Below are positions 1-63,405 of a stretch of 64,000 nucleotides of DNA, piece after piece. The stretch is from an uncultured Verrucomicrobiae bacterium (GTDB lineage Bacteria; Verrucomicrobiota; Verrucomicrobiia; Opitutales; JABDGR01): the NCBI GenBank assembly GCA_963765205.1, contig CAVXVB010000008.1, positions 288,001 through 352,000 on the forward strand. The letters are read 5' to 3'. The notes under the pieces were generated by a model, which saw only the letters and a program-made list of their open reading frames with translations, was not told the DNA's origin and did not search any database. A program made the translations under genes and the position numbers. The number at the start of each line of letters is the position of its first letter. Positions within the stretch are counted from its first letter, which is position 1.

Positions 1-629
1 ACACGACGCTGGACGACGGCCCGCTTGTCGAGCTTCATGTTGGGGATGCCATACATGAGCAGTCCGCCAATGCGGTCGGCGCGTTCGAAGACAGTGACGA
101 GGTGGCCGGCGGAATTCAATTGCGCGGCGCAGGCCAGCCCGGCCGGCCCGGAGCCGATGACGGCGACTTTTTTGCCGGTGCGGTGCGCGGGGGGCTGCGG
201 CACTATCCAACCCTCGTGCCAGCCTTTGTCGGCGATGGCGTTCTCGATGTTTTTAATGGTGACGGCCGGCTCGATGACGCCGAGCACGCAGGAGCCTTCG
301 CAGGGCGCGGGGCAGACGCGGCCGGTAAACTCGGGAAAGTTATTGGTGTGATGCAGGCGTTCGAGGGCCTCAAGCCACTGGTTCTTGAAGACCAAATCAT
401 TCCATTCGGGGATCAAGTTGTTGATCGGGCAGCCGGAGGCCATGCCGCTGATGAGCTGGCCGGTGTGGCAGAACGGGGTGCCGCAATCCATGCAGCGCGC
501 GCCCTGGGTCTGGAGTTCCTTATCCTCGCGGTGAGGATGGAATTCGAGCCAGTCCTGGATGCGTTCGGCCGGCGAGCGGGCGGGGCCGTCATCGCGCTGA
601 TAATCGAGAAATCCGGTTGTCTTACCCAT
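1..629 (-). CDS. gltD: Glutamate synthase small subunit, 5' part (runs off window start)
   Basis: Manual translation from ATG at 629: [10 protein letters not shown]...[12 protein letters not shown]...[12 protein letters not shown]...[20 protein letters not shown]...[14 protein letters not shown]; directly downstream of gltB. Confidence 0.95.
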
Positions 630-650
630 GGGGTGTGGAGGAATTTTTTT

Positions 651-721
651 ACCGCGAAGACGCGAAGGGCGCAAAGTTAATATGAATAAGCAAGGCTTTG
701 CGCTCTTGGCGTCTTGGCGGT
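651..721. repeat. Palindromic element: 26-bp inverted arms with ~9-nt internal periodicity
   Basis: ACCGCGAAGACGCGAAGGGCGCAAAG (651-676) / CTTTGCGCTCTTGGCGTCTTGGCGGT (696-721); related copy at 60386-60459. Confidence 0.8.
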
Positions 722-728
722 GAAGGAT

Positions 729-5363
<4,635 letters not shown>

Positions 5364-18309: not shown

Positions 18310-19038
18310 ATGCGCTCAATTCCCACCGATTACGGCCTGCTGCGCGTGGGGTCGCTTGACGACACTTTTCACGCCATCGTGGATGAGTTGCGCGGCGCGG
18401 TGGCGGCGAAGGGCGCGCCGATCACCGTCGGGTTGTCGGGGGGTTCGACGCCGAAGGCGTTTTACCAATGGGCGGTGCGCACGCAGGCGCTGCCCGCCGC
18501 CGTCTGGCAAAATTGCCTCTGGCTGACGAGCGACGAGCGCTGCGTGCCGCTGGCCTCCGACGAATCGAACTTCGGCAATGCCGACCGGCTGCTGCTAACG
18601 CCGCTGGGCGTGCCGGACGCGGCGAAAATTCCGTGGCCGGTTGATTTGCCGCCCGCGGACAGCGCCACGGCTTTCAATAAAATGTGGAACGCCCGCTTAG
18701 GCCCGCAACTGGGTTTCGATGTGTGCTTCCTCGGCATGGGCGACGACGGGCACACGGCGTCGCTGTGTCCGGGCTGCCCGCTCCTCGGCTCCGGGCTGGC
18801 GGACAATTTTGCGGCGGTCGAGTGGCCGGGGCGCGGCTGGCGGCTGACCATTACCGAGGCCGGGCTGGCGCGGTGCGGGCGCGTGGTTGTCATTACCAAC
18901 GGCGCGAACAAGGCCGCGGTGCTCAAAGCGATTCTGCGCGGGCCGTATGACCCGAAAAAACTGCCGTCACAAATCCACCGGGCCTACGCGGCGCGCGTGA
19001 CCTGGCTGGTGGACGAAGCGGCGGCGGCGGAATTATAA
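18310..19038 (+). CDS. pgl: 6-phosphogluconolactonase
   Basis: LSGGSTP, DERCVP...SN, LGMGDDGHTASL, RLTIT. Confidence 0.95.
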   Translation: MRSIPTDYGLLRVGSLDDTFHAIVDELRGAVAAKGAPITVGLSGGSTPKAFYQWAVRTQALPAAVWQNCLWLTSDERCVPLASDESNFGNADRLLLTPLGVPDAAKIPWPVDLPPADSATAFNKMWNARLGPQLGFDVCFLGMGDDGHTASLCPGCPLLGSGLADNFAAVEWPGRGWRLTITEAGLARCGRVVVITNGANKAAVLKAILRGPYDPKKLPSQIHRAYAARVTWLVDEAAAAEL

Positions 19039-19186
19039 AGTTTCGAGTTTCGGGTTTCGAGTTTTCCTCTCCTCGCGTCATTAAGTACTTGAGTTCTCAT
19101 TTCGTCTTGCCGCCCCCGAGTTTCAGCATTCAGCATTCAGCATTCAGCATTCAGCATTCAGCATTCAGCATTCAGCATTCAGCATT
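19038..19186. repeat. Two heptamer arrays of opposite polarity
   Basis: AAGTTTC GAGTTTC GGGTTTC GAGTTTT (19038-19065) and perfect (CAGCATT)x9 (19124-19186). Confidence 0.92.
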
Positions 19187-19239: not shown

Positions 19240-19803
19240 ATGAGCAAATCGCCCCATACCCACTCCGCCGATGCGGGGGAAAATCCCGCGCCCCAGGCCG
19301 TCCCGTCGCCGGAGACGGGGGCGTTGCTGGCGCAGTTGGACACCGCGCTGGCCGACGCGGCCAAATATAAAGACCAGTGCCTGCGCTCAATGGCGGATTT
19401 GGACAATTTCCGCCGCCGCGCCGCGCGCGACAAGGAGGACACCCGCCGCGCTGCCGCCGCCGCGCTGCTCGAGGACTTGCTGCCTGCGCTCGATAATTTG
19501 CGCCTGGGCCTCCAATCGGCGATGCAAGCACACCCGGAGGCCAAGGCCGTGATTGACGGCATCAAACTCGTCGCCGACCAGTTGCGCGGCGTGCTCACGC
19601 AGCATGGCTTGAAGGAAATCGAGCCGCTGGGCGAGGCCTTCGACGCGAAATTCCACGAGGCCGTCGCCCAGCAACCGAGCGAGCGCATCCCCGAGGGCCA
19701 CGTCATGCAAGTGCTGCGCCCAGGCTATTTGCTGAACGATCGGCTGCTCCGCGCGGCCAGCGTGATCCTGTCGTCCGGGCCGGGGCCGGAAATTAAGAAG
19801 TAA
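19240..19803 (+). CDS. grpE: Nucleotide exchange factor GrpE
   Basis: LRSMADLDNFRRR, LLPALDNL, FDAKFHEAV, GYLLNDRLLRAASV. Confidence 0.96.
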   Translation: MSKSPHTHSADAGENPAPQAVPSPETGALLAQLDTALADAAKYKDQCLRSMADLDNFRRRAARDKEDTRRAAAAALLEDLLPALDNLRLGLQSAMQAHPEAKAVIDGIKLVADQLRGVLTQHGLKEIEPLGEAFDAKFHEAVAQQPSERIPEGHVMQVLRPGYLLNDRLLRAASVILSSGPGPEIKK

Positions 19804-19921
19804 AAGTTAAGAATTAAGCAAGGCCGCCACGAGACCCAACACCATCCCTCCCGTCCATGCGTCAATTTAGTTTTGATTTCGGCATTTTAATTCTTAATTC
19901 ATAACTCTTAATTCTTACTTT
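19790..19921. repeat. Inverted pair of heptamer arrays between grpE and purA
   Basis: AAATTAA GAAGTAA AAGTTAA GAATTAA (19790-19817) / TTAATTC TTAATTC ATAACTC TTAATTC TTACTTT (19887-19921). Confidence 0.85.
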
Positions 19922-19927
19922 TCCCGC

Positions 19928-21481
19928 ATGGCCCTGCCTCCCTTCACCAGCCAGTTAATCGCCGACGTGGGCATCAGCCTCGGCGACGAAGGCAAGGGGC
20001 GCCTCGTCTATGAGATCGCCGCCGAGTTGCGCAGCCAGACGCAGCGCGACGCCGCCGTGGCGATGGTGCTCAAAGTCAACGGCGGCGCGAACTCGGGCCA
20101 CACGGCGGGCGGATTAAAACTAAACCTCTTGCCGGCGGGCGTCATTGACGTCCATGTGCCGATGCTGGCCATCGGCGCGGGCGTGGTCGCCGACCCGCGC
20201 AAATTCTGGTGGGAGCTGGAGCCGCTCGAACGCCGCGGCTACCGTGTGTTCGAGCGCCTGCTCATTGACGAACGCACCATGCTTGCCGATGTCTCCCACC
20301 GGCTGCTCGACCTCGCCTGGGAGGACTACCGCACGCATGTGCTGGGCGAACCGCAACGCGGCTCGACCGGCCGCGGCATCACTCCCGCATACAGCGACGA
20401 AGCCAACCAATGGACCATTTATTACGGGGACTTTCTCGGCCCGCGCGCGGACTTCGAGCGGCGCTTTCGCACTCGCCTGAACCGGGCCTCGCGCATCATC
20501 AAGGACATCTGCCAGGTCATCCCGGAGCATTGGGATATTTTCTTTGACCGCCTCACGCTCGCCGAAACGCGGGCGAATCAGGCCGCCATTGACGCCGGAA
20601 TTTTCCCCAAGGAGGAATTCGACTTCTGCCAGTTCCGCAGCAAGGAGCCTTATTTCCTCAACACCGACCTCCTCACCGAAACCTACTGGCAGGCCGGGCA
20701 GCGGCTGCGGGCGCGCATCGGCGACGTGCGCGAGGCCGCGCTGGCCGCGCTGGCGGGCGGCCAATACATCATCGGCGAATTCGGCCAGAGCTACTGGCTC
20801 GACAAGCGCCGCGGCTTTTCGCCCAATGTCACAGCCTCGCACACTTACACGCCGGAATTTTTTGAGAGCGCGGGCATCCCGTGCCAGCCGGTCCATACCG
20901 TGGGCTGCTGCAAGGCCTACGACACCAAGGTCGGCACGCATGTTTTCCTCACGCGGATCGAAGAGACACACCCGCTCGGCCAATTATTGCGCGAGCTGGA
21001 ATACGGCACCAGCACCGGCCGCCAGCGCATGGTCGGCTGGTTTGACGCCGTGGAAAAAGGCGACGCGCTGCGTTATGGCGGCTTCCAGGATCTCATCATC
21101 AACAAGCTCGACGCGCTCACCTATCGCGGCGCGTGGCGCGACGGCGTATTGCTCGTCTGCACGGGCTACCGCACGCCCGGCGGCGCGCTGACCGCCGGCG
21201 TCCCGCGCGACGACCGCGCGCGCCAGGCCCTGCAACCGGTTTACGCAAAACTGCCTGGCTGGCACGAGGACATCGCGGGCGTCACCTCCTTCGCCAAATT
21301 GCCGGCCAATGCGAAGCGCTATGTTGCGTTTTTGGTAAAAAGCGTGCTCAACGTCGCCACGCGTGGCGGCACCTCGGAAGTCCCCGCGCCGAATCTGCGC
21401 TATATTGGCACCGGCCCCGACCCCGACCAAGTCATCCGCGACGTGCCGGTGACCAAGGAATTGCTGAAGCTGGCGGAATGA
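19928..21481 (+). CDS. purA: Adenylosuccinate synthetase (long, divergent form)
   Basis: LGDEGKG, GGANSGHT, GSTGRGI, EYGTSTGRQRMVGWFD, NKLD, LPANAKRY. Confidence 0.92.
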   Translation: MALPPFTSQLIADVGISLGDEGKGRLVYEIAAELRSQTQRDAAVAMVLKVNGGANSGHTAGGLKLNLLPAGVIDVHVPMLAIGAGVVADPRKFWWELEPLERRGYRVFERLLIDERTMLADVSHRLLDLAWEDYRTHVLGEPQRGSTGRGITPAYSDEANQWTIYYGDFLGPRADFERRFRTRLNRASRIIKDICQVIPEHWDIFFDRLTLAETRANQAAIDAGIFPKEEFDFCQFRSKEPYFLNTDLLTETYWQAGQRLRARIGDVREAALAALAGGQYIIGEFGQSYWLDKRRGFSPNVTASHTYTPEFFESAGIPCQPVHTVGCCKAYDTKVGTHVFLTRIEETHPLGQLLRELEYGTSTGRQRMVGWFDAVEKGDALRYGGFQDLIINKLDALTYRGAWRDGVLLVCTGYRTPGGALTAGVPRDDRARQALQPVYAKLPGWHEDIAGVTSFAKLPANAKRYVAFLVKSVLNVATRGGTSEVPAPNLRYIGTGPDPDQVIRDVPVTKELLKLAE

Positions 21482-36794: not shown

Positions 36795-39251
36795 TTAGGC
36801 TTTTTCTTCCTCCTCCGCGTCTTCGGTTTCGATGACTTTGCAGAGGCCGACGAGTTTGTCGCCGGGTTCGAGGCGGACGAGGCGCACGCCTTGCGCGACG
36901 CGGCCGGTGGTCCGGATGTCCTTGACCGGCGAGCGCACGGCCTGGCCGGAGGCGGTGAGCATCATCACTTCGTCGTTCTCGCGCACGCTGAGCGCGCCGG
37001 CGACGCCGCTTTCCGTCTTGATGGCGATGACGCCCTTGCCGCCGCGCGACTGGAGGCGGAAGACGGGGCCGTCCTCGTCGTCGAAGGGCGTGCGCTTGCC
37101 GATGCCATTGACGCCGGCGACGAGCAACGTGCAGGCCGGGTCCACGACTTCCATGGCCTTGACGGTGTCGCCTTTGTCCAACCTCATGCCGATGACGCCG
37201 GTGGCGGGGCGGCCCATTTCGCGGGCTTCCTCCTCGGGGAAACGGATGGACATGCCTTCGGCGGAAATGAGGACAACCTGCTGGCCGACGGTGATTTCCT
37301 TGACGGCGATGAGCGTGTCGCCGGCCTCAATGTTGATGGCGATGATGCCGCCCTTGCGCACGTTGGCGTATTCCTTGAGCGCGGTCTTTTTGATGACGCC
37401 GAGTTGCGTGCAGAACATGAGGCTCTTGCCCGGCTCCTCGAGGGACTTCACGCAGACCATCGCGGTCATTTTCTCGTCTTTCTGCATCTGCACGACGTTG
37501 GCGATGGCGCGGCCCTTCGAGGTGCGGGTGCCCTCGGGGATTTCGTAAACTTTTTCGACATAGACTCTGCCGTTGCTGGTGAAGAACATCATGTAGTCGT
37601 GCGTGCTGGCGGTGAAGAGGTGCTCGACAAAGTCCTCCTCGTGCTGGCCGGTGCCGATGACGCCCTTGCCGCCGCGCTTTTGCGAGCGGTAGGCGCTGAC
37701 GGCGGTGCGCTTGATGAAGCCCAGGTGCGAGACGGTGACGATGCAGCCCTCGTTGGCGACAACGTCCTCCATGCGGAACTCGCCCTCGGCGGCGACGAGC
37801 TTGGTGCGGCGCGGCGAGGGAAACTTTTCCTTCAATTCGCGCAATTCCTTCTTGATGACGCCAAGGAGTTTTTTCTCGCTGCGGAGGATTTCCTCGTATT
37901 CGAAGGCCAGCTCCATGAGCTGTTTGTATTCCTCGGTGATTTTGTCGCGCTCGAGGCCGGTCAACTGGTAGAGGCGCAGGTCGAGGATGGCGTTGGTCTG
38001 TTTTTCGGAAAGGGGGTATTTGGCCATGAGGCGCACGCGAGCCTCGTCGCGGTCGGGGGAGCTGCGGATGATTTTGACGATGTCGTCGAGGTGCTTGAGC
38101 GCAATCTGGTAGCCTTCGAGGATGTGGGCGCGGTCCTGGACCTTGCGCAGCAAAAATTTCGTGCGGCGGGTGACGACCTCGCGGCGGTGCTCGACGTAGC
38201 AGTCCAGCATCTCGCGGATGTTCATCTGCTTGGGGCGGCGCTTGTCGAGCGCGAGCAGGATGACGCCGAAGGAGGCCTCGAACTGCGTGTGCTTGTAGAG
38301 TTTGTTGACGACGACGCGGGCGGACTCACCGCGCTTGAGTTCGAGGACGATGCGGGTCTTCTCGTCGGATTCGTCGCGCAGGTCGGAGACCTCGTCGAAG
38401 GTCTTGTCCTGCACGAGCGCGGCGATGTTCTGCGTGAGGGTGGCGCGGTTGACGTTGTAGGGGATCTCGGTGATGACGATCTGCTCCTTGCCGTTTTTGA
38501 TCTCCTCGGAGTGGCATTCGCCGCGCATGTGGACGATGCCGCGGCCGGTGCGCAGGTAGCTTTCGATGCCCTCGCGCCCGGCAATCATGCCGCCGGTGGG
38601 AAAGTCGGGGCCGGGGACGAGCTTGATCAGCTCGTCCATGGACAGGCGCGGGTTGTCCATGATGGCGCAAACGGCGTCAATCAGCTCGCCGAGGTTGTGG
38701 GGCGGGATGTTGGTGGTCATGCCGACGGCAATGCCGGTCGAGCCGTTCATGAGCAAATTGGGCAGGCCGGCGGGGAAGACGGCCGGCTCGGTGGACTTTT
38801 CGTCGTAATTGGGGCCGAAATCCACGGTGTCCTCGTCAATGCCGCGGAGGAGTTCCTCGGCGATGGCGGTGAGGCGGCACTCGGTGTAGCGGTAGGCGGC
38901 GGGCGGGTCGCCGTCCACCGAGCCGAAGTTGCCCTGGGGGTCCACGAGCGGGTAGGCCATGACCCAGGGCTGGGCCATGCGCACGAGAGTGTCGTAAACC
39001 GAGCTGTCGCCGTGGGGGTGGTAAGTCTTGAGCACTTCGCCGACGACGCCGGCGCATTTGGTGGTGGAGCGGTTGTGCAGCAGGCCTTCGCGCAGCATGG
39101 CATAGAGGACGCGGCGCTGGACGGGCTTTAGGCCGTCGCGGGCGTCCGGCAGCGCGCGCGAGATGATGACCGACATTGAATAATCAATGTAGGCCGTCTG
39201 CATGATGTCGGTGATGCTGGTCGGCGTCAGTTTTTCTTTGTCGGAGTACAT
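36795..39251 (-). CDS. gyrA: DNA gyrase subunit A
   Basis: [22 protein letters not shown], GyrA-box QKRGGKG. Confidence 0.97.
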
Positions 39252-39258
39252 TAGGAAA

Positions 39259-39293
39259 GGATGAAGGATGAAGGATGAGGGATGAAGGATGAA
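39259..39293. repeat. Heptamer array (GGATGAR)x5
   Basis: GGATGAA GGATGAA GGATGAG GGATGAA GGATGAA, 7 nt upstream of the gyrA start. Confidence 0.92.
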
Positions 39294-39306
39294 GAAAGCC
39301 CGCGGG

Positions 39307-39702
39307 TTATTTTTTCGAAACGGGTTCGCGGCGTTTCACGTTTTTCACACAGGTGCTGAGGATGGAAATGAGTTCGTTGGATTCGGTTTGCAGGTCGCGC
39401 AGACGCGGTTCTGGCATCAGGCCGGACTCGATGAGCAACTCCAACCAATATTGGGTTTCATCGAGTTCCTGAAGGGCCAATTCGAGTTTGGCGATGAATT
39501 CGGCATTGGAGCGGCTGCGCCGGGCCTCGCGGTGATGGGCGCCGACCGAAATGCCGGAACGCAAAACCTGCCGGCCGATGACTTGGCCTGCCTGAGTGCG
39601 CGGTAAAGCGGTGGAAAGTTTGATGACACGAAGGGCAAATTGTTTGAGCCGCGCCGAAAGGTCCGGCGCGGTGGGTTGGGTGGGTTTGGTTTCATCCTTC
39701 AT
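39307..39702 (-). CDS. Four-helix-bundle protein (23S rRNA IVS / Avd-like family)
   Basis: RLKQFALRVIKL...IGRQVLRSGISVGAHHREA...EFIAKL...QELDETQYWLELL...ELISIL. Confidence 0.92.
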   Translation of the reverse strand: MKDETKPTQPTAPDLSARLKQFALRVIKLSTALPRTQAGQVIGRQVLRSGISVGAHHREARRSRSNAEFIAKLELALQELDETQYWLELLIESGLMPEPRLRDLQTESNELISILSTCVKNVKRREPVSKK

Positions 39703-39711
39703 CCCTCATCC
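39691..39711. repeat. Heptamer array (YTCATCC)x3, inverted relative to 39259-39293
   Basis: Abuts the gyrB stop and contains the ATG of the four-helix-bundle gene. Confidence 0.9.
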
Positions 39712-42254
<2,543 letters not shown>

Positions 42255-42373: not shown

Positions 42374-42452
42374 TCTACCTTCCACCTCCTACCTTCTATC
42401 TCCACGTTTTCCCCTTTCCGACCCTTCATCCTTCATCCCTCATCCTTCATCC
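42374..42452. repeat. Two heptamer arrays upstream of aldose epimerase
   Basis: TCTACCT TCCACCT CCTACCT TCTATCT and TTCATCC TTCATCC CTCATCC TTCATCC ending 6 nt before ATG. Confidence 0.85.
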
Positions 42453-42458
42453 TTTCAT

Positions 42459-43535: not shown

Positions 43536-43949
43536 TCAGCCGGGCATCATCAACGACAACTGCTCGCGCTCAAACCGGCGGTAAACCTTGAAATCGCGCA
43601 TGTCCACGGTCACAACTTTGGCGCGGGGGAAGAGTTCGCTTAAAACCACGAGGGAGGCGTCGGCGGCGTCCATGCGCTCGAATTTCAACATCAGTTCCTG
43701 GGTGCGCCGCAAATGTTCCGGCCAAAGCGGAAACAGCACCAGCGCGCCGTGGCGCACCAAATCCAACAAGGCATGAGACTGGGAGGTGTTGCCGCCCAGA
43801 TGATGGCAGGCTTCGCCCAAGACAATTTCGGTTGTGTGCAGCCGGCCCCGGCGACCGGAAAGCGTCCGGTGGCTCCATTCGTGCCATTGGTCGGCTGCAT
43901 CCAGCCAGCCGATGAGCGGTCCGGCATCCACTATGGTTTCAACGACCAT
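43536..43949 (-). CDS. PIN-domain (VapC) toxin
   Basis: IVDAGPL...DQWH...VLGEA...MDAADASLV...TVDMRDFKVYR. Confidence 0.9.
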   Translation of the reverse strand: MVVETIVDAGPLIGWLDAADQWHEWSHRTLSGRRGRLHTTEIVLGEACHHLGGNTSQSHALLDLVRHGALVLFPLWPEHLRRTQELMLKFERMDAADASLVVLSELFPRAKVVTVDMRDFKVYRRFEREQLSLMMPG

Positions 43950-44154
43950 AGCCCTCGCGGGTGGAGAGATCGCCCGGCCCACGGAACATGCCGAGGTAGG
44001 GTTTGGCCAGGGTGGCAAAATCCGGCTCGGGCGCGGAGAGTTCGCGTTCGAGGGCGCGCCGCGTCAACACGGACAGGTTTTCCTTCCGCTTCTGCGCCTC
44101 GGTGCGCAAACGGCGGTTGAGAGTGGCGGTTAACTTGATGGTGAGTGAAGGCAT
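43939..44154 (-). CDS. RHH/CopG-type antitoxin
   Basis: MPSLTIKL...LSVLTRRALE...GPGDLSTREGYG; upstream direct repeat GTAAGAC x2 over the promoter. Confidence 0.85.
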   Translation of the reverse strand: MPSLTIKLTATLNRRLRTEAQKRKENLSVLTRRALERELSAPEPDFATLAKPYLGMFRGPGDLSTREGYGR

Positions 44155-48641: not shown

Positions 48642-48797
48642 GAATGGAAGATGGCCGGTGGAAAATGGAAAAAATCATTCGCCAGGCGGGGACTGATTTG
48701 TTTTACTTACCCCTCCCCCACCCCGCCGTGCAGGCTTGAGGCTGTTTGCTGTGCGGTTCCTGCGTTTTTTCCATCTTCCATTTTCCATCTTCCATTT
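48642..48797. repeat. Inverted pair of heptamer arrays
   Basis: GAATGGA AGATGGC CGGTGGA AAATGGA / TCCATCT TCCATTT TCCATCT TCCATTT then C-ATG. Confidence 0.85.
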
Positions 48798-48798
48798 C

Positions 48799-49485
48799 AT
48801 GAGTGAGCTTTTCGATGTCGTGGACGAACACGACCGCGTGCTGCGCCGCGAGACGCGCGCGGAAGTCCACCGCCAGCGCCTGCTGCACCGCGCCGTGCAC
48901 ATCCTCGTGTTCAATGCGCGCGGCGAAGTTTACCTCCAGCGGCGCTCCGCACAGAAGGACACCTACCCGCACCGATGGACGACCTCGTGCTCCGGCCATG
49001 TGGACGCGGGCGAGGACTACGATACGGCGGCAGTGCGCGAACTGGCGGAGGAACTGGGGTTGGCGGGGGCGAAGGTGAAGAAGGCGACTAAAGGGACTAA
49101 GGCACTGAGGCACAAAGGCACAGAGGAAAGGCCGGGAAAAGACAGAGCGCCAAAAAACCAGGCGCATTCTTCCCAATCTGCAACTTGCAACTTGCAACTT
49201 GCCGCCAACAACCTGCAACCTGCAACCCAACTCGAAACCCGAAACTCGAAACCCGAAACTATCGTCCCATTTGTAAAACACCCCCCCTGCCGCGAGACCG
49301 GCTGGGAATTTATCTGGATTTACACCCTGACCACCAACGCGGCGCCCGCGCCCGACCCGGGGGAGATTTCCGAAGGACGCTGGATCTCACCCGACGAACT
49401 CGACGCGTGGATGAGCCGCGAGCCAAAGGCCTTCACGCCGTCCTTTATACTGGTGTGGAAATTGTGGCGGGAGGCGCAGGAGTGA
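48799..49485 (+). CDS. Nudix hydrolase (IDI/YfcD-like) with ~65-aa repeat-derived insertion
   Basis: [38 protein letters not shown]; insertion ~49065-49260. Confidence 0.88.
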
Positions 49486-50317: not shown

Positions 50318-52513
50318 TATAGCCCGGCCTTGGCGCGGAACTGGTCGAAACTTTCGGGGTCGAGTTCCTCGATAAACCGGCTCGGTTCGAGGACGGCGGG
50401 CGGGCCGCCCTGGCTGACGATGCGCGGGTAGAGTACATACAGTTCGTCCCGCGCGCGCGTGGCCGCGACGTAGAAGAGGCGGCGCTCCTCCTCAACGTCG
50501 CCGGAATCAATGGCGCGCTTGAGCGGCAGCAGGCCGTCGGCTGCGCCGATAATGAAGACGACGGGGAACTCCAGCCCCTTGGCCTGGTGGATGGTGGTGA
50601 GGCGCACGGTGTCGGCGTCCGGCTCGACGGCGCGGTCGCTTGTTTCGGAATTGAGGAGCACCAGTTGCGCGAGCAATTCGTTCATGTCCGCGAAGCGGGA
50701 GGCGAAGCCGATGATGCTGTCGAGGTCTTCCCGGCGCGACTCCCAGTTGTCGTAGATGTTGCGGAGGTAATCGCCATACCAACCTTCGATGGCGAGGCGG
50801 ACGACATCGGCGGGCGAGGGGGCGGAGCCGGAAGTGTGGAGTGTGGAGTGTGGAGTGCGAAGTGGAGGACTGGAACCGTTTTTAATTTCGACATCAAACA
50901 ACGCTCCTTGCGTTCCGGGCATTCCTTCTTCATTGGGCGTTGGATGTTGAGTGTTGGATGTTGGATGTTGTCCGGGATGAAGTTGCGCCACGCCCAACTG
51001 GGCGAGGGTTTCCTCGAGATTTTGGAGGGTCAGCGCGAGGTCCTTGAAGTCGGCGCGGGCCTCGGCGGGGAGTTTCGCGGCCACGGATTCCGCCGTCAGC
51101 GCGCCAATCAAAGTTTTGCCCTGCGCGCGTGCGGTTTGCTGGGCGGCGGCCAGCGCGCTCTCCGCCTTGCGCGGGCCGACCTTGGGCAGCAGCGACGCGA
51201 GGCGGATGAAGGCCACGGTGTCGCGCGGGTTGTGCGCGAAGCGCAGGTGCGCGGTCAGGTCGCGCACATGCGCCTGCTCAAAGAACCGCACGCCGCTGGT
51301 GATGGTGAAGGGCACGCCGGCGCGCGACAGCTCGATTTGCATATCCATCGCCTGGTAATGCGCGCGGTAGAGCACGGCGATGTCGCGCAGCGCGACGCCG
51401 TCCTGGTCGTGCAATTCGCGCAGGCGCGCGATGACGAAGGCGGCCTGCTGCCGGGTGTCGAGCGCGGCGATGACGACGGGCCGGCGCCCCATTTTGCGCA
51501 CCGGGCGCAGGTGCTTGTGGAAGCCCTCGGCGACGTGTTGATGATCAAGGATGCCGTTGGCGAAGCACAGCACCTCGGGCGTGCTGCGGTAATTGATTTC
51601 GATTTTGAAAATCCGCGCGCCGGGGTGCCGCTCGGGGAAGCGGCGGATGTTGTCGAAGTTCGCGCCACGCCAGGTGTAGATGCACTGCGCGTCGTCGCCC
51701 ACGGCCATGAGCTGGTGCTCGGCGGCCAGGAGGTCCACGATTTCCGACTGCAATTTGTTGGTGTCCTGGTATTCGTCCACGAGGATGTGGCGGAACTGCC
51801 TCTGATAATGGGCGCGGGCGGCCTCGTCGCGTTGCAAAACCTGGAGCCAGTATTCGAGGAGGTCGTCATAATCGGCTACGTGCTTCTCGCGCTTGGCCTG
51901 CTGGTAGGCGGCGGCAAATTTATGCAGCGGGCCGGAAATTTCCTCGAGCCACGGGTATTTTTCGGCAATGACCTCGCCGAGGGTCTGGCGGGTGTTGCGC
52001 GCGTAGCTGATGACCTCGGCGACCACGCGGGGCTTGGGATGCTCCTTGTGTTTGGTGAAGGCCGGGTCCACGGCGCGGATCACGTCGCCAAATAGCGCGT
52101 CGGCGTCGCCCTCGTCGAGGATGGTGAAGTTCGGCGGGAGGCCGGCGGCCTCGCCGTGGCGGCGGAGCACACGCTGGCCCACGCTGTGGAAGGTGCCGCC
52201 CCAAAAGCGCGCGCGGGGCACGCCGGTCAGGGTCCTCGACGCGGCCGAGCATCTCGCGCGCGGCTTTGTTGGTGAAGGTCAGGAGCAAAATCTGCCACGG
52301 CTGCGCGCCTTGTTCGAGGAGCCAGGCCACGCGGTAGGTCAGTGTGCGCGTCTTGCCGGAGCCGGCGCCGGCGAGCACCAACGCGGGGCCGGGCGGGGCG
52401 GTGACGGCGGCCAGTTGGTCCTCGTTCAGGGCCGCAGCATAATCAATCGGCGCGAAGGCCCCCGGCGCCAGTCGCGCCAGCATGCTCTCGTTGCTTTCGA
52501 TTTCGCCAGCCAT
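50314..52513 (-). CDS. uvrD: UvrD/PcrA-family helicase, 1-bp frameshift at ~52230, internal repeat insertion
   Basis: [48 protein letters not shown]. Confidence 0.92.
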
Positions 52514-52609
52514 GGCCCTACCGTATCGCGCCCGGCCACCCCCGGCTAGAAAAAAGCCGCGTTGAATTTTTTTCTTCTTAATTCTTCAATCTTAATTCTT
52601 AATTCGGCC

Positions 52610-53626
52610 ATGCCCTTTGACCCCGCCGACCTGCGCGTCGCCCCCGGCGCGCATGACCCCCTCCGCCACCACCGCCCCGAGGCCAGCCTCGGCTTGGGCG
52701 ACAAGGACGCCGCCGTCGAGGCCCTCGCCGAACTGCTGCCCGAATTGCGCAGCCTGCACGACCGCCTCAACGCGCAGCGCACCTGGTCCTTCCTCATCAT
52801 CCTGCAGGCGATGGACGCGGCGGGCAAGGACGGCATCATCAAGCACGTACTGACCGGCTTCAACCAGCAGTCGTGCCATGTGACGAGTTTTTCCGCGCCC
52901 GTCGGGGCGGAACTGACGCACACGTTTTTGTGGCGCTGCGTGGCGGCGCTGCCGGCGCGCGGGCACATCGGCGTCTTCAACCGCTCGTATTACGAGGAAG
53001 TGCTCGTGCCCCGCGTGCGGACGGAATACCTCGTCTATCAGGGTCTGCCCCCGCCCTGCCTGCGCGGCGACATCACGGATTTGGGGCAGGGAGGGAAAAG
53101 AATGGAAGAGGGAAAATGGAAAATGGAAAAAACCGGAACGCAAAATAGTTTTGCCGAGTTCGAGGCTAAACTCGCCGCGCGCAACACGAAACCGCCTTCG
53201 CTCCCACCGCCGGCTTTCTGGCAAGCGCGACTGGACGACATCAACACCTTCGAACGCCACCTGGCGCGCAACGGCACCCGCATCGTCAAATTCTTCCTGC
53301 ACCTTTCGCGGGAGGAGCAAAAACGGCGCTTTTTCACCCGCATCGAAGACACCGCGCGCAACTGGAAATTCACCCCCTCGGACGTGCGCGACCGCCGCTA
53401 CTGGGACAAATACCACCACGCCTATTCTGAAATCCTGACGACGACCAGCACGCCGTGGGCACCGTGGTATGTCATCCCGGCCGATTACAAATATGTGGCG
53501 CGCCTGGCCGTGGCGAAAGTTCTCGTCCGCGAACTCAGCGAGCTGCACCCGCACTATCCGCGCTTGGACAAAGCCGGCCGCAAAGCCCTCATCAAAGCGA
53601 GGAAAGAATTGGAAAAGGAAGGTTGA
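52610..53626 (+). CDS. ppk2: Polyphosphate kinase 2 family protein
   Basis: QAMDAAGKDG, FNRSYYEEVL, KFFLHLS, PWYVIPAD. Confidence 0.92.
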   Translation: MPFDPADLRVAPGAHDPLRHHRPEASLGLGDKDAAVEALAELLPELRSLHDRLNAQRTWSFLIILQAMDAAGKDGIIKHVLTGFNQQSCHVTSFSAPVGAELTHTFLWRCVAALPARGHIGVFNRSYYEEVLVPRVRTEYLVYQGLPPPCLRGDITDLGQGGKRMEEGKWKMEKTGTQNSFAEFEAKLAARNTKPPSLPPPAFWQARLDDINTFERHLARNGTRIVKFFLHLSREEQKRRFFTRIEDTARNWKFTPSDVRDRRYWDKYHHAYSEILTTTSTPWAPWYVIPADYKYVARLAVAKVLVRELSELHPHYPRLDKAGRKALIKARKELEKEG

Positions 53627-53703: not shown

Positions 53704-53793
53704 GGAGAGGTGACAGAGTGGCCGAATGTGCCTGACTCGAAATCAGGTGTGGGCGAAAGTCCACCGGGGGTTCGAATCCCTCCCTCTCCGCCA
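53704..53793 (+). tRNA. tRNA-Ser (anticodon CGA)
   Basis: GGAGAGG acceptor stem, CCTGA-CT CGA AA-TCAGG anticodon arm, long variable arm, GGTTCGAATCC, encoded CCA. Confidence 0.96.
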
Positions 53794-61244: not shown

Positions 61245-61429
61245 GGGTTTCTCCTGGTGGTGATGATAGGTGGGCCGCCGGTGAGGGCGAAAGGGGTCAC
61301 AATGAAGAGCGGCGGGGGGCTTGGCAACCTCCTTTTTGGGCCCTCCTACGCCAAGGCTACGGAGGGCTGGCGGTTAACCACCCCGGGCGGAGTGGGGGGG
61401 GCGGCGGCGTTGTGGGAAGTAGGGGGGGT

Positions 61430-61755
61430 GCTGATTGCTGAATTCGGAATGCGGAGTTCGGAATTCTGAGTGCGGAATAGCGGGCAGTGTGTGTGGGGGG
61501 GATTTTTGAATGCTGATTTCTGATTGCTGAATAAGGAATGCGGAATGGAGGCTGCCATGGATTGCGGGGAAGCCGAAGGAGCCGGGAGAGGGACGGGTGA
61601 AATGGTGGCGGGAGTATAAGCTAAATGGGGCGGGCGCGCAAATGCTCGGTTGGCTGCGTTGGATCGGTTGGCTGGGTTTGATGCGTTGGAAGGAGGAGGG
61701 AAGTGTGGAGGGTGAAGTGTGGAGTGCGGAGTTCGGAATTCGGAGTGCGGAGTAA
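61430..61755. repeat. Cluster of degenerate heptamer arrays
   Basis: GAATTCG GAATGCG GAGTTCG GAATTCT GAGTGCG; GAATGCT GATTTCT GATTGCT; AAGTGTG GAGTGCG GAGTTCG GAATTCG GAGTGCG. Confidence 0.8.
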
Positions 61756-61842
61756 AGGTTGGGAGCGGGGGAAGCACGGGGACAGCATTGAATGATCGAG
61801 GCAAGAAGGTGCAGCCTCAGCCTGACCAACTCTGACCCCCTC

Positions 61843-62769
61843 TCATTTCCTTTTGATGGCATAAATAGTAGCGATTACTAACACTACTGCCAACAGTCCA
61901 TACCAAGGGTTAAACCAAAAAGCTGACACTGGCACTTGTGGCGAGCTCGATGAGCTTTCGGAAGGAATTGATGAAGGGCTGAAGCCAGTTGGGGTTGTGC
62001 TGCTGAGCGCACCAGAGGCGCTTGGCTGTTTTGATGTAGTTGTTTGCATTGTGCCTGAGGCCAATTGGTCCCGAGCTTGCAAGGCCTGACTTCTATAATA
62101 ATTGGTGTCATGTTCAGGAATAGACGGAGAGTGCGGAATCCGCGGCGGTGGATCCATGGAAACATTCTCGTAGCCCGGCGGTGGCTTGATCGGTTCCGTT
62201 AAAAACTTCATCGTCTCATCAGGATGGGGCCAGATGATAGTGGCCATAACTTCCGCTCGTGCGTCTTGCATGGAGGGAACAAGCTGAAGCCTAACCTGGA
62301 CTTCAATACCGTTTATTGTGGCATCACCTGCCCATCCAAGAGTTTTGCGACCAGGACTATCGAGCGCTTTGATATAATCGTCCAAACGATTTGTGGCGAT
62401 ACCGATAGATTGACAGATTTTCTTTGCTTGCTGGGCGGCATCTTCCAGTGGCTCAGATTCGCAGAATGCATCAAAACTGCTGAGCTCATTCCCCGCAAGT
62501 ACGGAAATATCAACATTTCCTACAATTATGCCCATACTCACATTTCCAGGAAGAATTATTTTAAGATTCTCGTTGCCAAGCTCGCAATGCATATTCTCCA
62601 ATCCTTGTAAATGCCAGGGCCTTAACCCAGCATCAAAAATTGCCTTTAGATTACTGCTCTGACTAAAATCTATTGTGCGAACAACATCGCTTTCCGTTGC
62701 AGCCGTCAACCATTGCGGCCATAAGATAATTCCCGCAAGAAGAATTAAAATCTGCCTAAAATAATTCAT
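61843..62769 (-). CDS. Low-GC secreted protein with Ser/Thr/Pro linker and C-terminal TM anchor
   Basis: Signal peptide; tail WFNPWYGLLAVVLVIATIYAIKRK. Confidence 0.75.
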   Translation of the reverse strand: MNYFRQILILLAGIILWPQWLTAATESDVVRTIDFSQSSNLKAIFDAGLRPWHLQGLENMHCELGNENLKIILPGNVSMGIIVGNVDISVLAGNELSSFDAFCESEPLEDAAQQAKKICQSIGIATNRLDDYIKALDSPGRKTLGWAGDATINGIEVQVRLQLVPSMQDARAEVMATIIWPHPDETMKFLTEPIKPPPGYENVSMDPPPRIPHSPSIPEHDTNYYRSQALQARDQLASGTMQTTTSKQPSASGALSSTTPTGFSPSSIPSESSSSSPQVPVSAFWFNPWYGLLAVVLVIATIYAIKRK

Positions 62770-62909
62770 GTGATGGGTGCAAGAGAGGGTCAGGCTGCGG
62801 CTTCTTACCTAAATTTTGAGAGAATGGATCAAGTTTTGGGCGGGAGGGAGGGTGGAAATGAATTTGGCCTGGTAGGTAGGGCGGAGCGAGGCAAAATTGG
62901 GGGGGCGGG

Positions 62910-62958
62910 GATTGTTGATTTCTGAATGCTGAATTCTGAGTGCGGAGTGCGGAATATG
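62910..62958. repeat. Heptamer array
   Basis: GATTGTT GATTTCT GAATGCT GAATTCT GAGTGCG GAGTGCG GAATATG. Confidence 0.8.
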
Positions 62959-62965
62959 GGGGCGC

Positions 62966-63205
62966 TTATAACGACTTGAGGATGGCGTCCCGGTCAACGT
63001 GTTTGGCTTGGGCCACCGCGCGGAGGATGCCGTGGAGAGTGCCCAGGCGCAGCGGCGCGTGGTCGGGCACGGAGAGGCGGTGAGGCGCGGGCGCGTCCGT
63101 TTGCAGGATGATGTGGCTGCCGACTTGATGCACCGGCCGGTAGCCCCAGTGCCGGCATAGCGCCTTGACCAGGTCGCGACCGTTGATATCGCGCGGCAGT
63201 TTCAT
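62966..63205 (-). CDS. hicA: HicA-family toxin
   Basis: KLPRDING...HQVGSHIIL...VPDH...GTLHGIL. Confidence 0.9.
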   Translation of the reverse strand: MKLPRDINGRDLVKALCRHWGYRPVHQVGSHIILQTDAPAPHRLSVPDHAPLRLGTLHGILRAVAQAKHVDRDAILKSL

Positions 63206-63405
63206 GCCAGCACTTCGTCACGCACCAAGTGCAGGCGCACGCGCGCCGGGGCGGTTTGATCGAAATAGAACGCCGCCACCGCTTCCTTGACATTGGCCCG
63301 CAACTGCTCCCAGGTATCCGCCTCGGTGAAGATGCCCTCGCCGAGGGCTTCGGCAACGTAGCCGCCGTCCGCCTCCTGGGTGACCTCGAAAATGATTTCG
63401 TGCAT
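63202..63405 (-). CDS. hicB: Short HicB-like antitoxin
   Basis: EIIFEVTQEADGGYVAEA...IFTEADTWEQLRANVKEAV; ATGA overlap. Confidence 0.85.
   Translation of the reverse strand: MHEIIFEVTQEADGGYVAEALGEGIFTEADTWEQLRANVKEAVAAFYFDQTAPARVRLHLVRDEVLA

What the first reader, a model, noticed from the sequence alone, without database searches (positions are those of the whole stretch)
39259..39711. Four-helix-bundle (Avd/IVS-like) gene packaged between inverted heptamer arrays inside the gyrB-gyrA operon, with empty versions elsewhere
Seen: in gene orientation the order is gyrB stop, (GGATGAR)x3 (supplying the ATG), four-helix-bundle gene, (YTCATCC)x5, 7 nt, gyrA ATG. The same architecture without a gene occurs at grpE-purA (19790-19921), DMT-Nudix (48642-48797) and pgl-grpE (19038-19186): a purine-led array right after a stop codon and a complementary-type array before the next start. 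Known: this protein family includes the 23S IVS proteins and is structurally related to the DGR accessory protein Avd; its function is unassigned. Inference: a small cassette with full and empty forms whose ends are heptamer arrays instead of classical TIRs. It would slot between co-transcribed genes without breaking the operon, perhaps pairing its arms into an RNA hairpin. No transposase or reverse transcriptase is visible in the window, so the mechanism is open.
Basis: partly seen in the sequence, partly recalled or inferred. Interest (0 to 1): 0.85.

Follow-up and report, generated by a model that had tools for sequence, protein, structure and literature searches.

The report
Ring-protein gene seeding its own repeats
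A small gene of unknown function sits between gyrB and gyrA inside mirror-image runs of a 7-base word, and genomes that carry such a gene tend to be strewn with gene-less copies of that same word (some even inside enzyme genes), which points to an unrecognised gene-plus-repeat system and offers a protein partner for the unexplained heptamer repeats of bacteria.

Summary
Observation confirmed: gyrB stop, (GGATGAR)x3 holding the ATG, a TIGR02436/PF05635 four-helix-bundle (FHB) gene, (YTCATCC)x5, gyrA. Own-flank inverted arms occur at 125 of 176 FHB loci from five phyla versus 1.6% of cross-paired flanks. Full, empty, absent and differently filled gyrB-gyrA alleles exist. No RT found in this family. 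Best reading (0.5): a pentameric ring reads five tandem units and licenses their spread by an unidentified enzyme; binding and mobility are untested. The design is in print only for one 23S rRNA IVS; this scan noted it before on other DNA (668 notes).

The parts
39712..39714 (-). gyrB stop codon (TAA); its AA is the first part of the left arm
   Evidence: sequence; gyrB family; contigs restore the frame that ends here
39691..39713 (-). Left arm, (GGATGAR)x3, purine-rich; second unit gives the ATG of the FHB gene
39307..39702 (-). Four-helix-bundle gene, 131 aa, TIGR02436/PF05635; dN/dS 0.09-0.13; fold of pentameric 2RLD, 2GSC and Avd
39257..39294 (-). Right arm, (YTCATCC)x5, reverse complement of the left arm including the variant unit; ends a few nt before gyrA ATG
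36795..39251 (-). gyrA (downstream host gene)
19790..19921 (+). Gene-less inverted pair, AAGAATT family, grpE-purA junction
   Evidence: score 19
48642..48797 (+). Gene-less inverted pair, ATGGAAA family, DMT-Nudix junction; relatives have other arrays (G001, G003) or none detected (G004, G008)
   Evidence: score 19.5
19039..19186 (+). Hybrid: left arm of the AGTTTCG family and right arm (TTCAGCA)x9 of another family; not an inverted repeat
   Evidence: score 9
629..732 (-). Gene-less 8/9-mer hairpin just after the glutamate synthase large-subunit gene; relatives G003 and G008 carry an armed FHB gene at this junction
   Evidence: score 19
49090..49260 (+). Four arms inserted in frame in a loop of the Nudix gene (+177 nt against G004/G008)
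53101..53130 (+). Single left arm (ATGGAAA family) in frame in ppk2; no array detected at this loop in G001, G002, G004, G008
50831..50970 (-). Two arms of different families in frame in the UvrD-like helicase gene
42423..42454 (+). Single right arm of the same family as the cassette, ending 4 nt before the aldose-epimerase ATG
52575..52605 (+). Single right arm (TTCTTAA) before the ppk2 ATG

Best explanation
The locus is the single resident 'master' gene of one repeat family, in the way a RAYT gene is master of its REPINs, but the protein is an Avd-type five-subunit ring rather than a transposase. SHOWN: armed architecture across phyla; one gene per unit; abundance of gene-less arms tracks the resident gene; whole ~30-nt arms are copied with a signature variant; arms are gained at operon junctions and in frame in enzyme loops; purifying selection on the protein; a fixed two-base core (G-A on the left arm) with free spacer positions. 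INFERRED: the ring wraps one single-stranded arm (4 periods plus 2 nt = five core motifs, one per subunit), which holds the core fixed while spacers drift. INFERRED, weakest: this binding delivers the arm or hairpin to an enzyme not identified here (host repair/recombination or a partner nuclease, not a resident RT) that copies it to new sites. Insertions persist where they do least harm: between a stop and the next start, just before starts, and in tolerant loops. The ORF-bearing 23S rRNA IVS would be one such insertion that landed in rRNA.
For: Arms at 125 of 176 FHB loci vs 1.6% of 3000 cross-paired flanks and 15 of 176 in direct orientation; 42 of 66 further Bacteroidota loci; 14 of 19 distinct loci on viral contigs. 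Six resident proteins compared are 19-59% identical. 184 of 314 arrays lie within one mismatch of a resident unit vs mean 81 (foreign units) and 91 (kin units), 1 of 2000 draws as high in each. The five genomes richest in (GGATGAR)3 out of 26, from three phyla, are exactly the five with a GGATGA-armed FHB; over four patterns 11 of 13 resident vs 7 of 91 other cells reach 10 matches, and seven genomes without a PF05635 hit have 0-3. Two 30-mers occur 13 and 9 times exactly. Nudix loop: no insert in G004/G008, different families in G000, G001, G003, partly matching units of FHBs resident there. 66 units of the window's subfamily share A in 66 and G in 54, information 5.84 vs 3.74 (max 3.94) for shuffled letters. 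Array length mode 30 nt. Fold matches five-chain entries 2RLD (Z 17.4), 2GSC (16.2) and Avd 4DWL (13.5); Avd grips RNA with all five protomers, bases in inter-protomer crevices (10.1101/2023.10.23.563531). TAACTGA test: 4 of 88 vs 0 of 284 loci.
Against: No binding, no mobility and no enzyme was shown. The fold has no known catalytic role. No insertion boundary or target duplication could be defined (relatives too distant). The residue-base match (E59 vs A/S59 with unit position 2: T in 5 of 42 vs 21 of 24) rests on two changes in the tree and one independent pair, so it is not evidence of co-evolution. Exceptions: 7 cells rich in a unit without a resident gene found (e.g. AACATC in this genome, 22 matches), 2 resident cells with only 3-5 matches, the TAACTGA-richest, single-contig genome G584 and three others have no matching FHB; 51 of 176 FHB loci lack a strong inverted repeat; the core motif is weak outside the window's subfamily (4.12 vs 3.73). 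The correlation cannot by itself give the direction (gene makes repeats, or abundant repeats capture the gene). Genomes are kin and partly chosen by FHB content, so the P values overstate.
Confidence: 0.5

Rival explanations
1. Domesticated RNA-binding regulon: the FHB ring is a TRAP-like post-transcriptional regulator, arrays are its operators near starts and stops, the gene is autoregulated by its own arms, and arrays arise by slippage and are kept by selection; nothing is actively mobilised.
For: Right arms end within 20 nt of a start in 27 of 52 cases even in long divergent regions (about 6 expected); wrong polarity only 6 of 260; gene inherited in place under purifying selection; MacGregor 2015 argued this for TAACTGA (PMC4679880); conserved core.
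Against: Exact 30-mers with a fixed variant in 13 and 9 copies are not what independent slippage gives; about 36 arrays sit in frame inside coding sequences; the family at a junction is replaced between sister genomes; broken FHB copies are common (2 of 7 here).
Confidence: 0.2
2. IVS-like mRNA hairpin: what matters is an RNA stem cut by RNase III or looping out the passenger gene so that the operon stays coupled; periodicity comes from slippage and template switching and the protein does not read the arms.
For: Stable predicted stem; the Coxiella IVS has this design and is cut by RNase III at the first heptamer (PMC4990558); left arm starts at the stop, right arm ends near the start.
Against: No G·U excess on the sense strand: 169 vs 181 A·C at 178 FHB loci, 28 vs 39 at GxxExxY loci, 58 vs 80 in co-directional empties, while terminator-like stems gave 6 vs 0 (small control, n = 29); single arms outnumber pairs; a passenger model does not explain why about 1% of other genes but most FHB genes are enclosed nor the fixed core.
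Confidence: 0.15
3. Homing-like exchange: cassettes and empties spread by recombination through conserved flanking genes, with GxxExxY PD-(D/E)XK nucleases cutting in trans; the FHB gene is carried along or acts only as a cofactor.
For: 17 of 18 junctions that hold a full cassette in a relative hold a full cassette (6) or an empty (11) here, vs 338 of 1861 junctions overall; occupants interleave on the gyrBA tree and two near-identical sisters differ; GxxExxY occurs in 70 of 81 FHB-positive genomes and fills the same gyrB-gyrA junction.
Confidence: 0.15

Closest known systems
ORF-bearing intervening sequence (IVS) of 23S rRNA, S23p/PF05635 (Coxiella burnetii, PMC4990558; Leptospira as cited there)
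   Same: Same protein family; terminal inverted stem (28 bp there, 23 bp here); tandem heptamers running into the ORF's ATG; similar size (about 430-460 nt); sporadic distribution.
   Different: Here between protein genes, not in rRNA; many unit families per genome; gene-less pairs, single arms, hybrids and in-frame arms; RNase III cutting untested; no G·U signature.
REPIN / RAYT systems (PMC3337134; PMC3116915 seen as listing only)
   Same: Single-copy, mutually divergent genes, each flanked by and matched to its own repeat family; many non-autonomous inverted doublets; purifying selection on the gene.
   Different: The gene is an all-helical Avd-type fold, not a HUH tyrosine transposase; arms are tandem 6-8-nt words, not palindromic REPs; hybrids of two families occur (that paper reports none in SBW25); single arms dominate and enter ORFs.
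DGR accessory protein Avd (4DWL, 8UB7; 10.1101/2023.10.23.563531)
   Same: Same fold (Z 13.5, rmsd 1.9 over 106 residues); pentamer that binds RNA through all five protomers.
   Different: 20% identity; no RT, template repeat or variable repeat near the gene; no RVT_1 hit in 7 of 7 genomes of this family, only 33 of 81 FHB-positive genomes have one.
Orphan heptamer arrays: TAACTGA repeats of Beggiatoaceae, Cyanobacteria and Bacteroidetes (PMC4679880); cyanobacterial STRR (recalled)
   Same: 2-6 copies of a heptamer, mostly just before start codons, some split by related units, some in ORFs, patchy across phyla.
   Different: No partner protein was named there (0 hits for 'helix bundle', 'intervening', 'IVS' in its text); here FHB genes with TAACTGA-type arms were found in 4 of 8 rich genomes.
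Rickettsia palindromic elements in coding sequences; TRAP RNA-binding ring (both recalled, not from a call)
   Same: In-frame repeat insertions in surface loops; a ring reading one short core motif per subunit with free spacers.
   Different: Unrelated sequences and proteins; only functional analogies.

Membership tests
Four-helix-bundle protein family TIGR02436 / PF05635 | HMM score above curated cut-off | tested here: met
   88.2 bits vs 24; PF05635 67.6 bits vs 33.8
Four-helix-bundle protein family TIGR02436 / PF05635 | Four long helices, fold of 2RLD/2GSC | tested here: met
   model pLDDT 87.9, four helices; Z 17.4 and 16.2
Four-helix-bundle protein family TIGR02436 / PF05635 | Homopentamer | not tested
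   inferred from five-chain entries of homologues and the Avd paper
ORF-bearing 23S rRNA IVS | Lies inside an rRNA gene | tested here: not met
   flanked by gyrB and gyrA; Rfam finds only one tRNA in the window
ORF-bearing 23S rRNA IVS | S23p ORF within terminal inverted repeats with tandem heptamers | tested here: met
   against the description in PMC4990558
ORF-bearing 23S rRNA IVS | Excision by RNase III | not testable with these tools
   needs RNA-end mapping or an in vitro assay
REPIN/RAYT | Master gene is a HUH/Y1 tyrosine transposase | tested here: not met
   all-helical FHB; the genome's PF01797 hits are elsewhere and not bracketed by matching arms
REPIN/RAYT | Single-copy divergent genes, each tied to its own repeat family | tested here: met
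REPIN/RAYT | Repeat units are short palindromes (REPs) and the doublet is the unit that moves | tested here: not met
   arms are tandem non-palindromic words; single arms 103, matched pairs 34, hybrids 15
REPIN/RAYT | Excision intermediates in population reads | tested here: inconclusive
   only assembled contigs were available; one arm-to-arm joint could come from any empty copy
Diversity-generating retroelement (Avd) | RT gene with template and variable repeats beside avd | tested here: not met
   neighbours are gyrB and gyrA; no RVT_1 hit in this genome, 92% complete
IS / MITE with terminal inverted repeats | Target-site duplication and a cognate transposase | tested here: inconclusive
   no shared boundary motif or duplication seen by eye, but relatives are too distant for exact boundaries

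The most novel reading that the evidence does not exclude
A widespread, undescribed class of selfish or semi-domesticated repeat systems in which a small oligomeric protein with no transposase or RT fold reads a tandem array with one core motif per subunit (five for the FHB ring on 6-8-nt words, about three for GxxExxY nucleases on 8-9-nt words) and drives copying of ~30-nt arms into translation junctions and protein loops by a mechanism not yet known; it would account for much of the bacterial heptamer-repeat excess, for ORF-bearing rRNA IVSs, and for recurring short peptide insertions in enzymes, and would offer a programmable single-strand-binding ring.
Probability: 0.35. Interest if true: 0.92.

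Novelty: new variant of a known kind. Interest (0 to 1): 0.78.

Why it matters
It ties three open questions together and makes them testable with one small protein: what the very common 'four helix bundle / 23S IVS' proteins do, why heptamer repeats are over-represented and patchy in bacteria (MacGregor 2015 proposed an unknown binding protein as the mobile agent), and how ORF-bearing rRNA IVSs originate. The genome offers an internal specificity matrix (several resident proteins, each with its own word) for a direct binding test. If the protein drives copying, this is a mobility route without transposase or resident RT that also writes short peptides into enzymes.

Tried and rejected
RNA evidence: no RNA holder listed; laying four DNA runs gave contigs only, and one arm-to-arm joint was set aside because any empty copy could give it. 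Complex prediction of four FHB copies with a GxxExxY protein: no answer, score 0.00; no evidence either way. Retro-mobility by a resident RT: RVT_1 not found in this genome, in 0 of 7 genomes of its family and 0 of 3 of family f32; 33 of 81 FHB-positive genomes have one. Y1 transposases as drivers: no matching arms at five loci. Locus-specific compensatory changes between arms: mirrored variants 67% in own pairs vs 60% in cross pairs, so a family signature and not local covariation. RNA-duplex selection: no G·U excess. Residue-base code: strong table, one independent pair, rejected as evidence. Cassette moving as a fixed unit: rejected as the general rule. Rfam: nothing at the locus. The GTDB scan with alignment A1 gave only 17 loci. 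First tree attempt returned nothing; period-9 part crashed and was not repeated. Literature searches listed no paper describing armed FHB genes outside rRNA or their link to gene-less arrays; the library lacks most subscription journals, only four papers were opened, and no supplements were read.

Full report
OBSERVATION. The sequence is as described. On the minus strand the gyrB stop (39714-39712) runs straight into (GGATGAR)x3, whose second unit holds the ATG of a 131-aa ORF (39702-39307); after it come five YTCATCC units and, 7 nt on, the gyrA ATG. The ORF is TIGR02436 and PF05635. The arms are exact reverse complements over 23 nt and pair in the predicted fold (z -4.84). Period 7 is strongly over-represented in this 4.0-Mb Opitutales-type genome (314 arrays vs 5-85 for other periods; 129 vs 3 after shuffling on C9).

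THE GENE FAMILY IS ARMED. The genome has seven FHB genes. Six have inverted arms, each with its own unit (five 7-mers, one 8-mer); one broken copy has a single arm. Its only GxxExxY gene has 9-mer arms. Only 32 of 3160 predicted genes (own simple gene caller) reach the flank score of 14, and the six enclosed ones are five FHBs and that GxxExxY gene. Of 256 FHB domain hits in the 388 loci then held, 176 were kept (40 partial, 28 duplicate, 12 at an edge dropped): 125 have a score of 14 or more, against 1.6% of 3000 cross-paired flanks and 15 of 176 in direct orientation; best period 7 in 104, 8 in 16, 6 in 6, other 2, none in 48. By phylum: Verrucomicrobiota 85 of 121, Bacteroidota 26 of 40, Planctomycetota 7 of 7, Acidobacteriota 5 of 6, Chloroflexota 2 of 2 (phylum assigned by me from search scope and record titles). 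For GxxExxY, 48 of 78 hits were kept: 37 have arms; periods 9 (11), 8 (9), 10 (2), 7 (1), none (25). Of 27 viral-contig loci, 19 distinct long ones were scored and 14 have arms; I did not check that they lie in phage genes rather than host flanks.

ALLELES AT gyrB-gyrA. Of 100 loci (20 of 59 genomes with a gyrA match, 80 metagenome contigs), 90 show the gyrB end. By my count from that output 49 have a gap of 60 nt or less, 5 hold an FHB, 9 a GxxExxY gene (two confirmed by Pfam; the rest by motif, or my profile), and a few hold HicAB, a methyltransferase with a second gene, or unknown ORFs. In the genus, G003 and G006 have the same cassette, G004 a 53-nt empty with the same unit, G001 and G002 gene-less hairpins of an 8-mer type. 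On a gyrBA tree these states interleave, and G006 and contig L028 are close sisters (support 99, path 0.027) with different occupants. The gene is under purifying selection (dN/dS 0.09-0.13) and its dS to G003 and G006 (0.87, 0.80) is close to that of the gyrA start (0.75, 0.63), while the arms have hardly changed. So here it was inherited in place or exchanged with its flanks, and the arms are constrained or homogenised. More widely, 18 junctions of this genome are syntenic with a full cassette in a relative: 6 are full, 11 hold an empty hairpin or array, often of another family, 1 nothing; background 338 of 1861. At moxR-DUF58 related FHBs occupy the site in six genomes with different units (flank names from my reading of the translations).

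GENE AND REPEAT FAMILY GO TOGETHER. Two 30-mers occur 13 and 9 times exactly; in the GGATGA family the variant unit sits mostly in second place, so whole arms are copied. 184 of 314 arrays are within one mismatch of a resident unit, against means of 81 and 91 for five foreign or kin units (1 of 2000 draws as high). In 26 genomes, the five richest in (GGATGAR)3 (50-170 matches; G000, G003, G006, a planctomycete, a chloroflexan) are the five with a GGATGA-armed FHB; three kin without one found have 18-33, the rest 0-3. With three more patterns, 11 of 13 resident cells and 7 of 91 others reach 10 matches. Matches overlap within long arrays, resident counts include the gene's own arms, patterns were chosen from known residents, and the genomes are kin and partly incomplete. 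As an outside test I wrote down beforehand (note, sent in the same turn as the first of the two searches) that genomes rich in the published orphan repeat TAACTGA should hold an FHB with those arms. 29 of 401 Bacteroidota have the repeat; in eight of the richer ones (chosen for several loci) 4 of 88 FHB hits, in 4 of 8 genomes, have such arms against 0 of 284 other hits (P 0.003); three of the four look alike in sequence, so they are not independent, and the richest genome has none.

WHAT SPREADS. In co-directional junctions: right arm only 65, left only 38, matched pair 34, hybrid 15. One search lists 39 arrays inside confidently called genes, of which about 36 look like these families. The Nudix loop in this window has no insert in G004 and G008, +87 nt in G003, +135 in G001 and +177 here, made of different families in each: real, repeated, in-frame gains. 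Intergenic 7-mer arrays peak at 30 nt (182 of 389 at 27-32), 9-mers at 25-26 nt (72 of 120), i.e. four periods plus two bases, five core motifs, against about three. Right arms end within 20 nt of a start in 100 of 260 typed arrays and left arms begin within 20 nt of a stop in 56, with 6 in the wrong polarity (48 of 308 untyped). For a palindromic insert in a short gap that is automatic, but in divergent regions of 150-800 nt 27 of 52 still end within 20 nt of a start where about 6 are expected.

DOES THE PROTEIN READ THE ARMS? The model matches 2RLD (Z 17.4, rmsd 1.8, 112 aligned), 2GSC (16.2) and Avd (13.5); the first two are five-chain entries, and Avd binds RNA with all five protomers, bases inserted between them (10.1101/2023.10.23.563531; passages and section 8 read). 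Period and unit follow protein clades across phyla; among cross-phylum pairs, 30% of 105 at 55-70% identity have units within one mismatch, against 1-4% below 55%. In the window's subfamily (92 of 243 loci, 66 with a callable unit) one position is A in all 66 and its neighbour G in 54, while others change up to 21 times on the tree. That is the pattern of a ring with one pocket per subunit (TRAP is my recalled analogy). The tempting residue-base match at E59 rests on two tree changes and is not counted. Against an RNA duplex as the selected form, mismatches show no G·U excess (169 vs 181; 28 vs 39; 58 vs 80), whereas a small terminator control does (6 vs 0). Periods of 6, 7 and 8 in one protein family fit a single strand better than a double helix (inference).

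MECHANISM. Best reading (0.5): master gene plus cognate repeat family; the ring binds five tandem cores of a single-stranded arm, and this licenses copying by an enzyme not found here. A resident RT is unlikely, as are the Y1 transposases. Rivals: domesticated regulon (0.2), RNase III/IVS-like hairpin with a passenger gene (0.15), homing-like exchange with GxxExxY in trans (0.15). Binding, oligomer, copying and direction of cause are inferred, not shown.

COMPARISON AND NOVELTY. The same design is in print for the Coxiella 23S IVS (PMC4990558; abstract and passages read): 28-bp terminal stem, tandem heptamers before the S23p ATG, RNase III cut, and the cited idea that the ORF served mobility. 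It works like RAYT/REPIN (PMC3337134; passages) but fails membership on the enzyme and on repeat anatomy. MacGregor 2015 (PMC4679880; abstract, introduction and passages) described orphan arrays before start codons and suggested an unknown binding protein as the mobile agent. Eight searches listed no paper on armed FHB genes outside rRNA or on the gene-to-array match; subscription journals and supplements were not seen. This scan's own notes report the architecture in many other genomes (668 notes) and the GxxExxY parallel; they gave me the IVS paper and the 'self-recognising' and 'master copy' readings, which I tested here. I file it as a new variant of a known kind, with a 0.35 chance of being a categorically new mobility system; interest 0.78.

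Noticed in passing
window 39854: gyrB changes frame near its 3' end in the window; contigs of two runs carry one extra base here, so this is most likely an assembly error.
   Followed up: yes
L206-L223 (G119), e.g. L208, L210, L216, L219: Proteins with two FHB domains in one frame of about 260-276 aa; their flanks lack arms. Possibly a domesticated branch.
   Followed up: partly
L211, L213, L239, L243, L245, L250, L276, L279: A clade of FHBs whose arms have period 6 rather than 7.
   Followed up: partly
L037, L079, L097 (gyrB-gyrA junction of other genomes): The same junction holds HicA/HicB genes or a DNA methyltransferase with a second gene; L018 holds a 93-aa ORF without Pfam match inside 9-mer arms.
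   Followed up: partly
genome C7:85095-85411: One 739-aa gene carries four arms of three families stacked in frame in one loop; loops act as accumulation sites.
   Followed up: no
window 19928-21481: purA is 517 aa and matches Pfam only in two pieces (238 bits); no repeat array inside it.
   Followed up: no
window 61400-63000: Dense cluster of degenerate 7- and 9-mer arrays around smpB, rpoZ and a HicA gene.
   Followed up: no
window 43536-44154 and 62966-63405: Two probable toxin-antitoxin pairs (PIN domain; HicA).
   Followed up: no
L001 and L003 (genome C4:217627, C2:247696): Two of the seven resident FHB genes have an internal stop; the ATGGAAA family tied to L003 is still the most numerous array family.
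   Followed up: partly
L149: An Opitutales FHB has arms with the unit that the Coxiella IVS paper reports as its fourth repeat.
   Followed up: no
window 53704-53790: One tRNA gene, the only Rfam match in the window.
   Followed up: no
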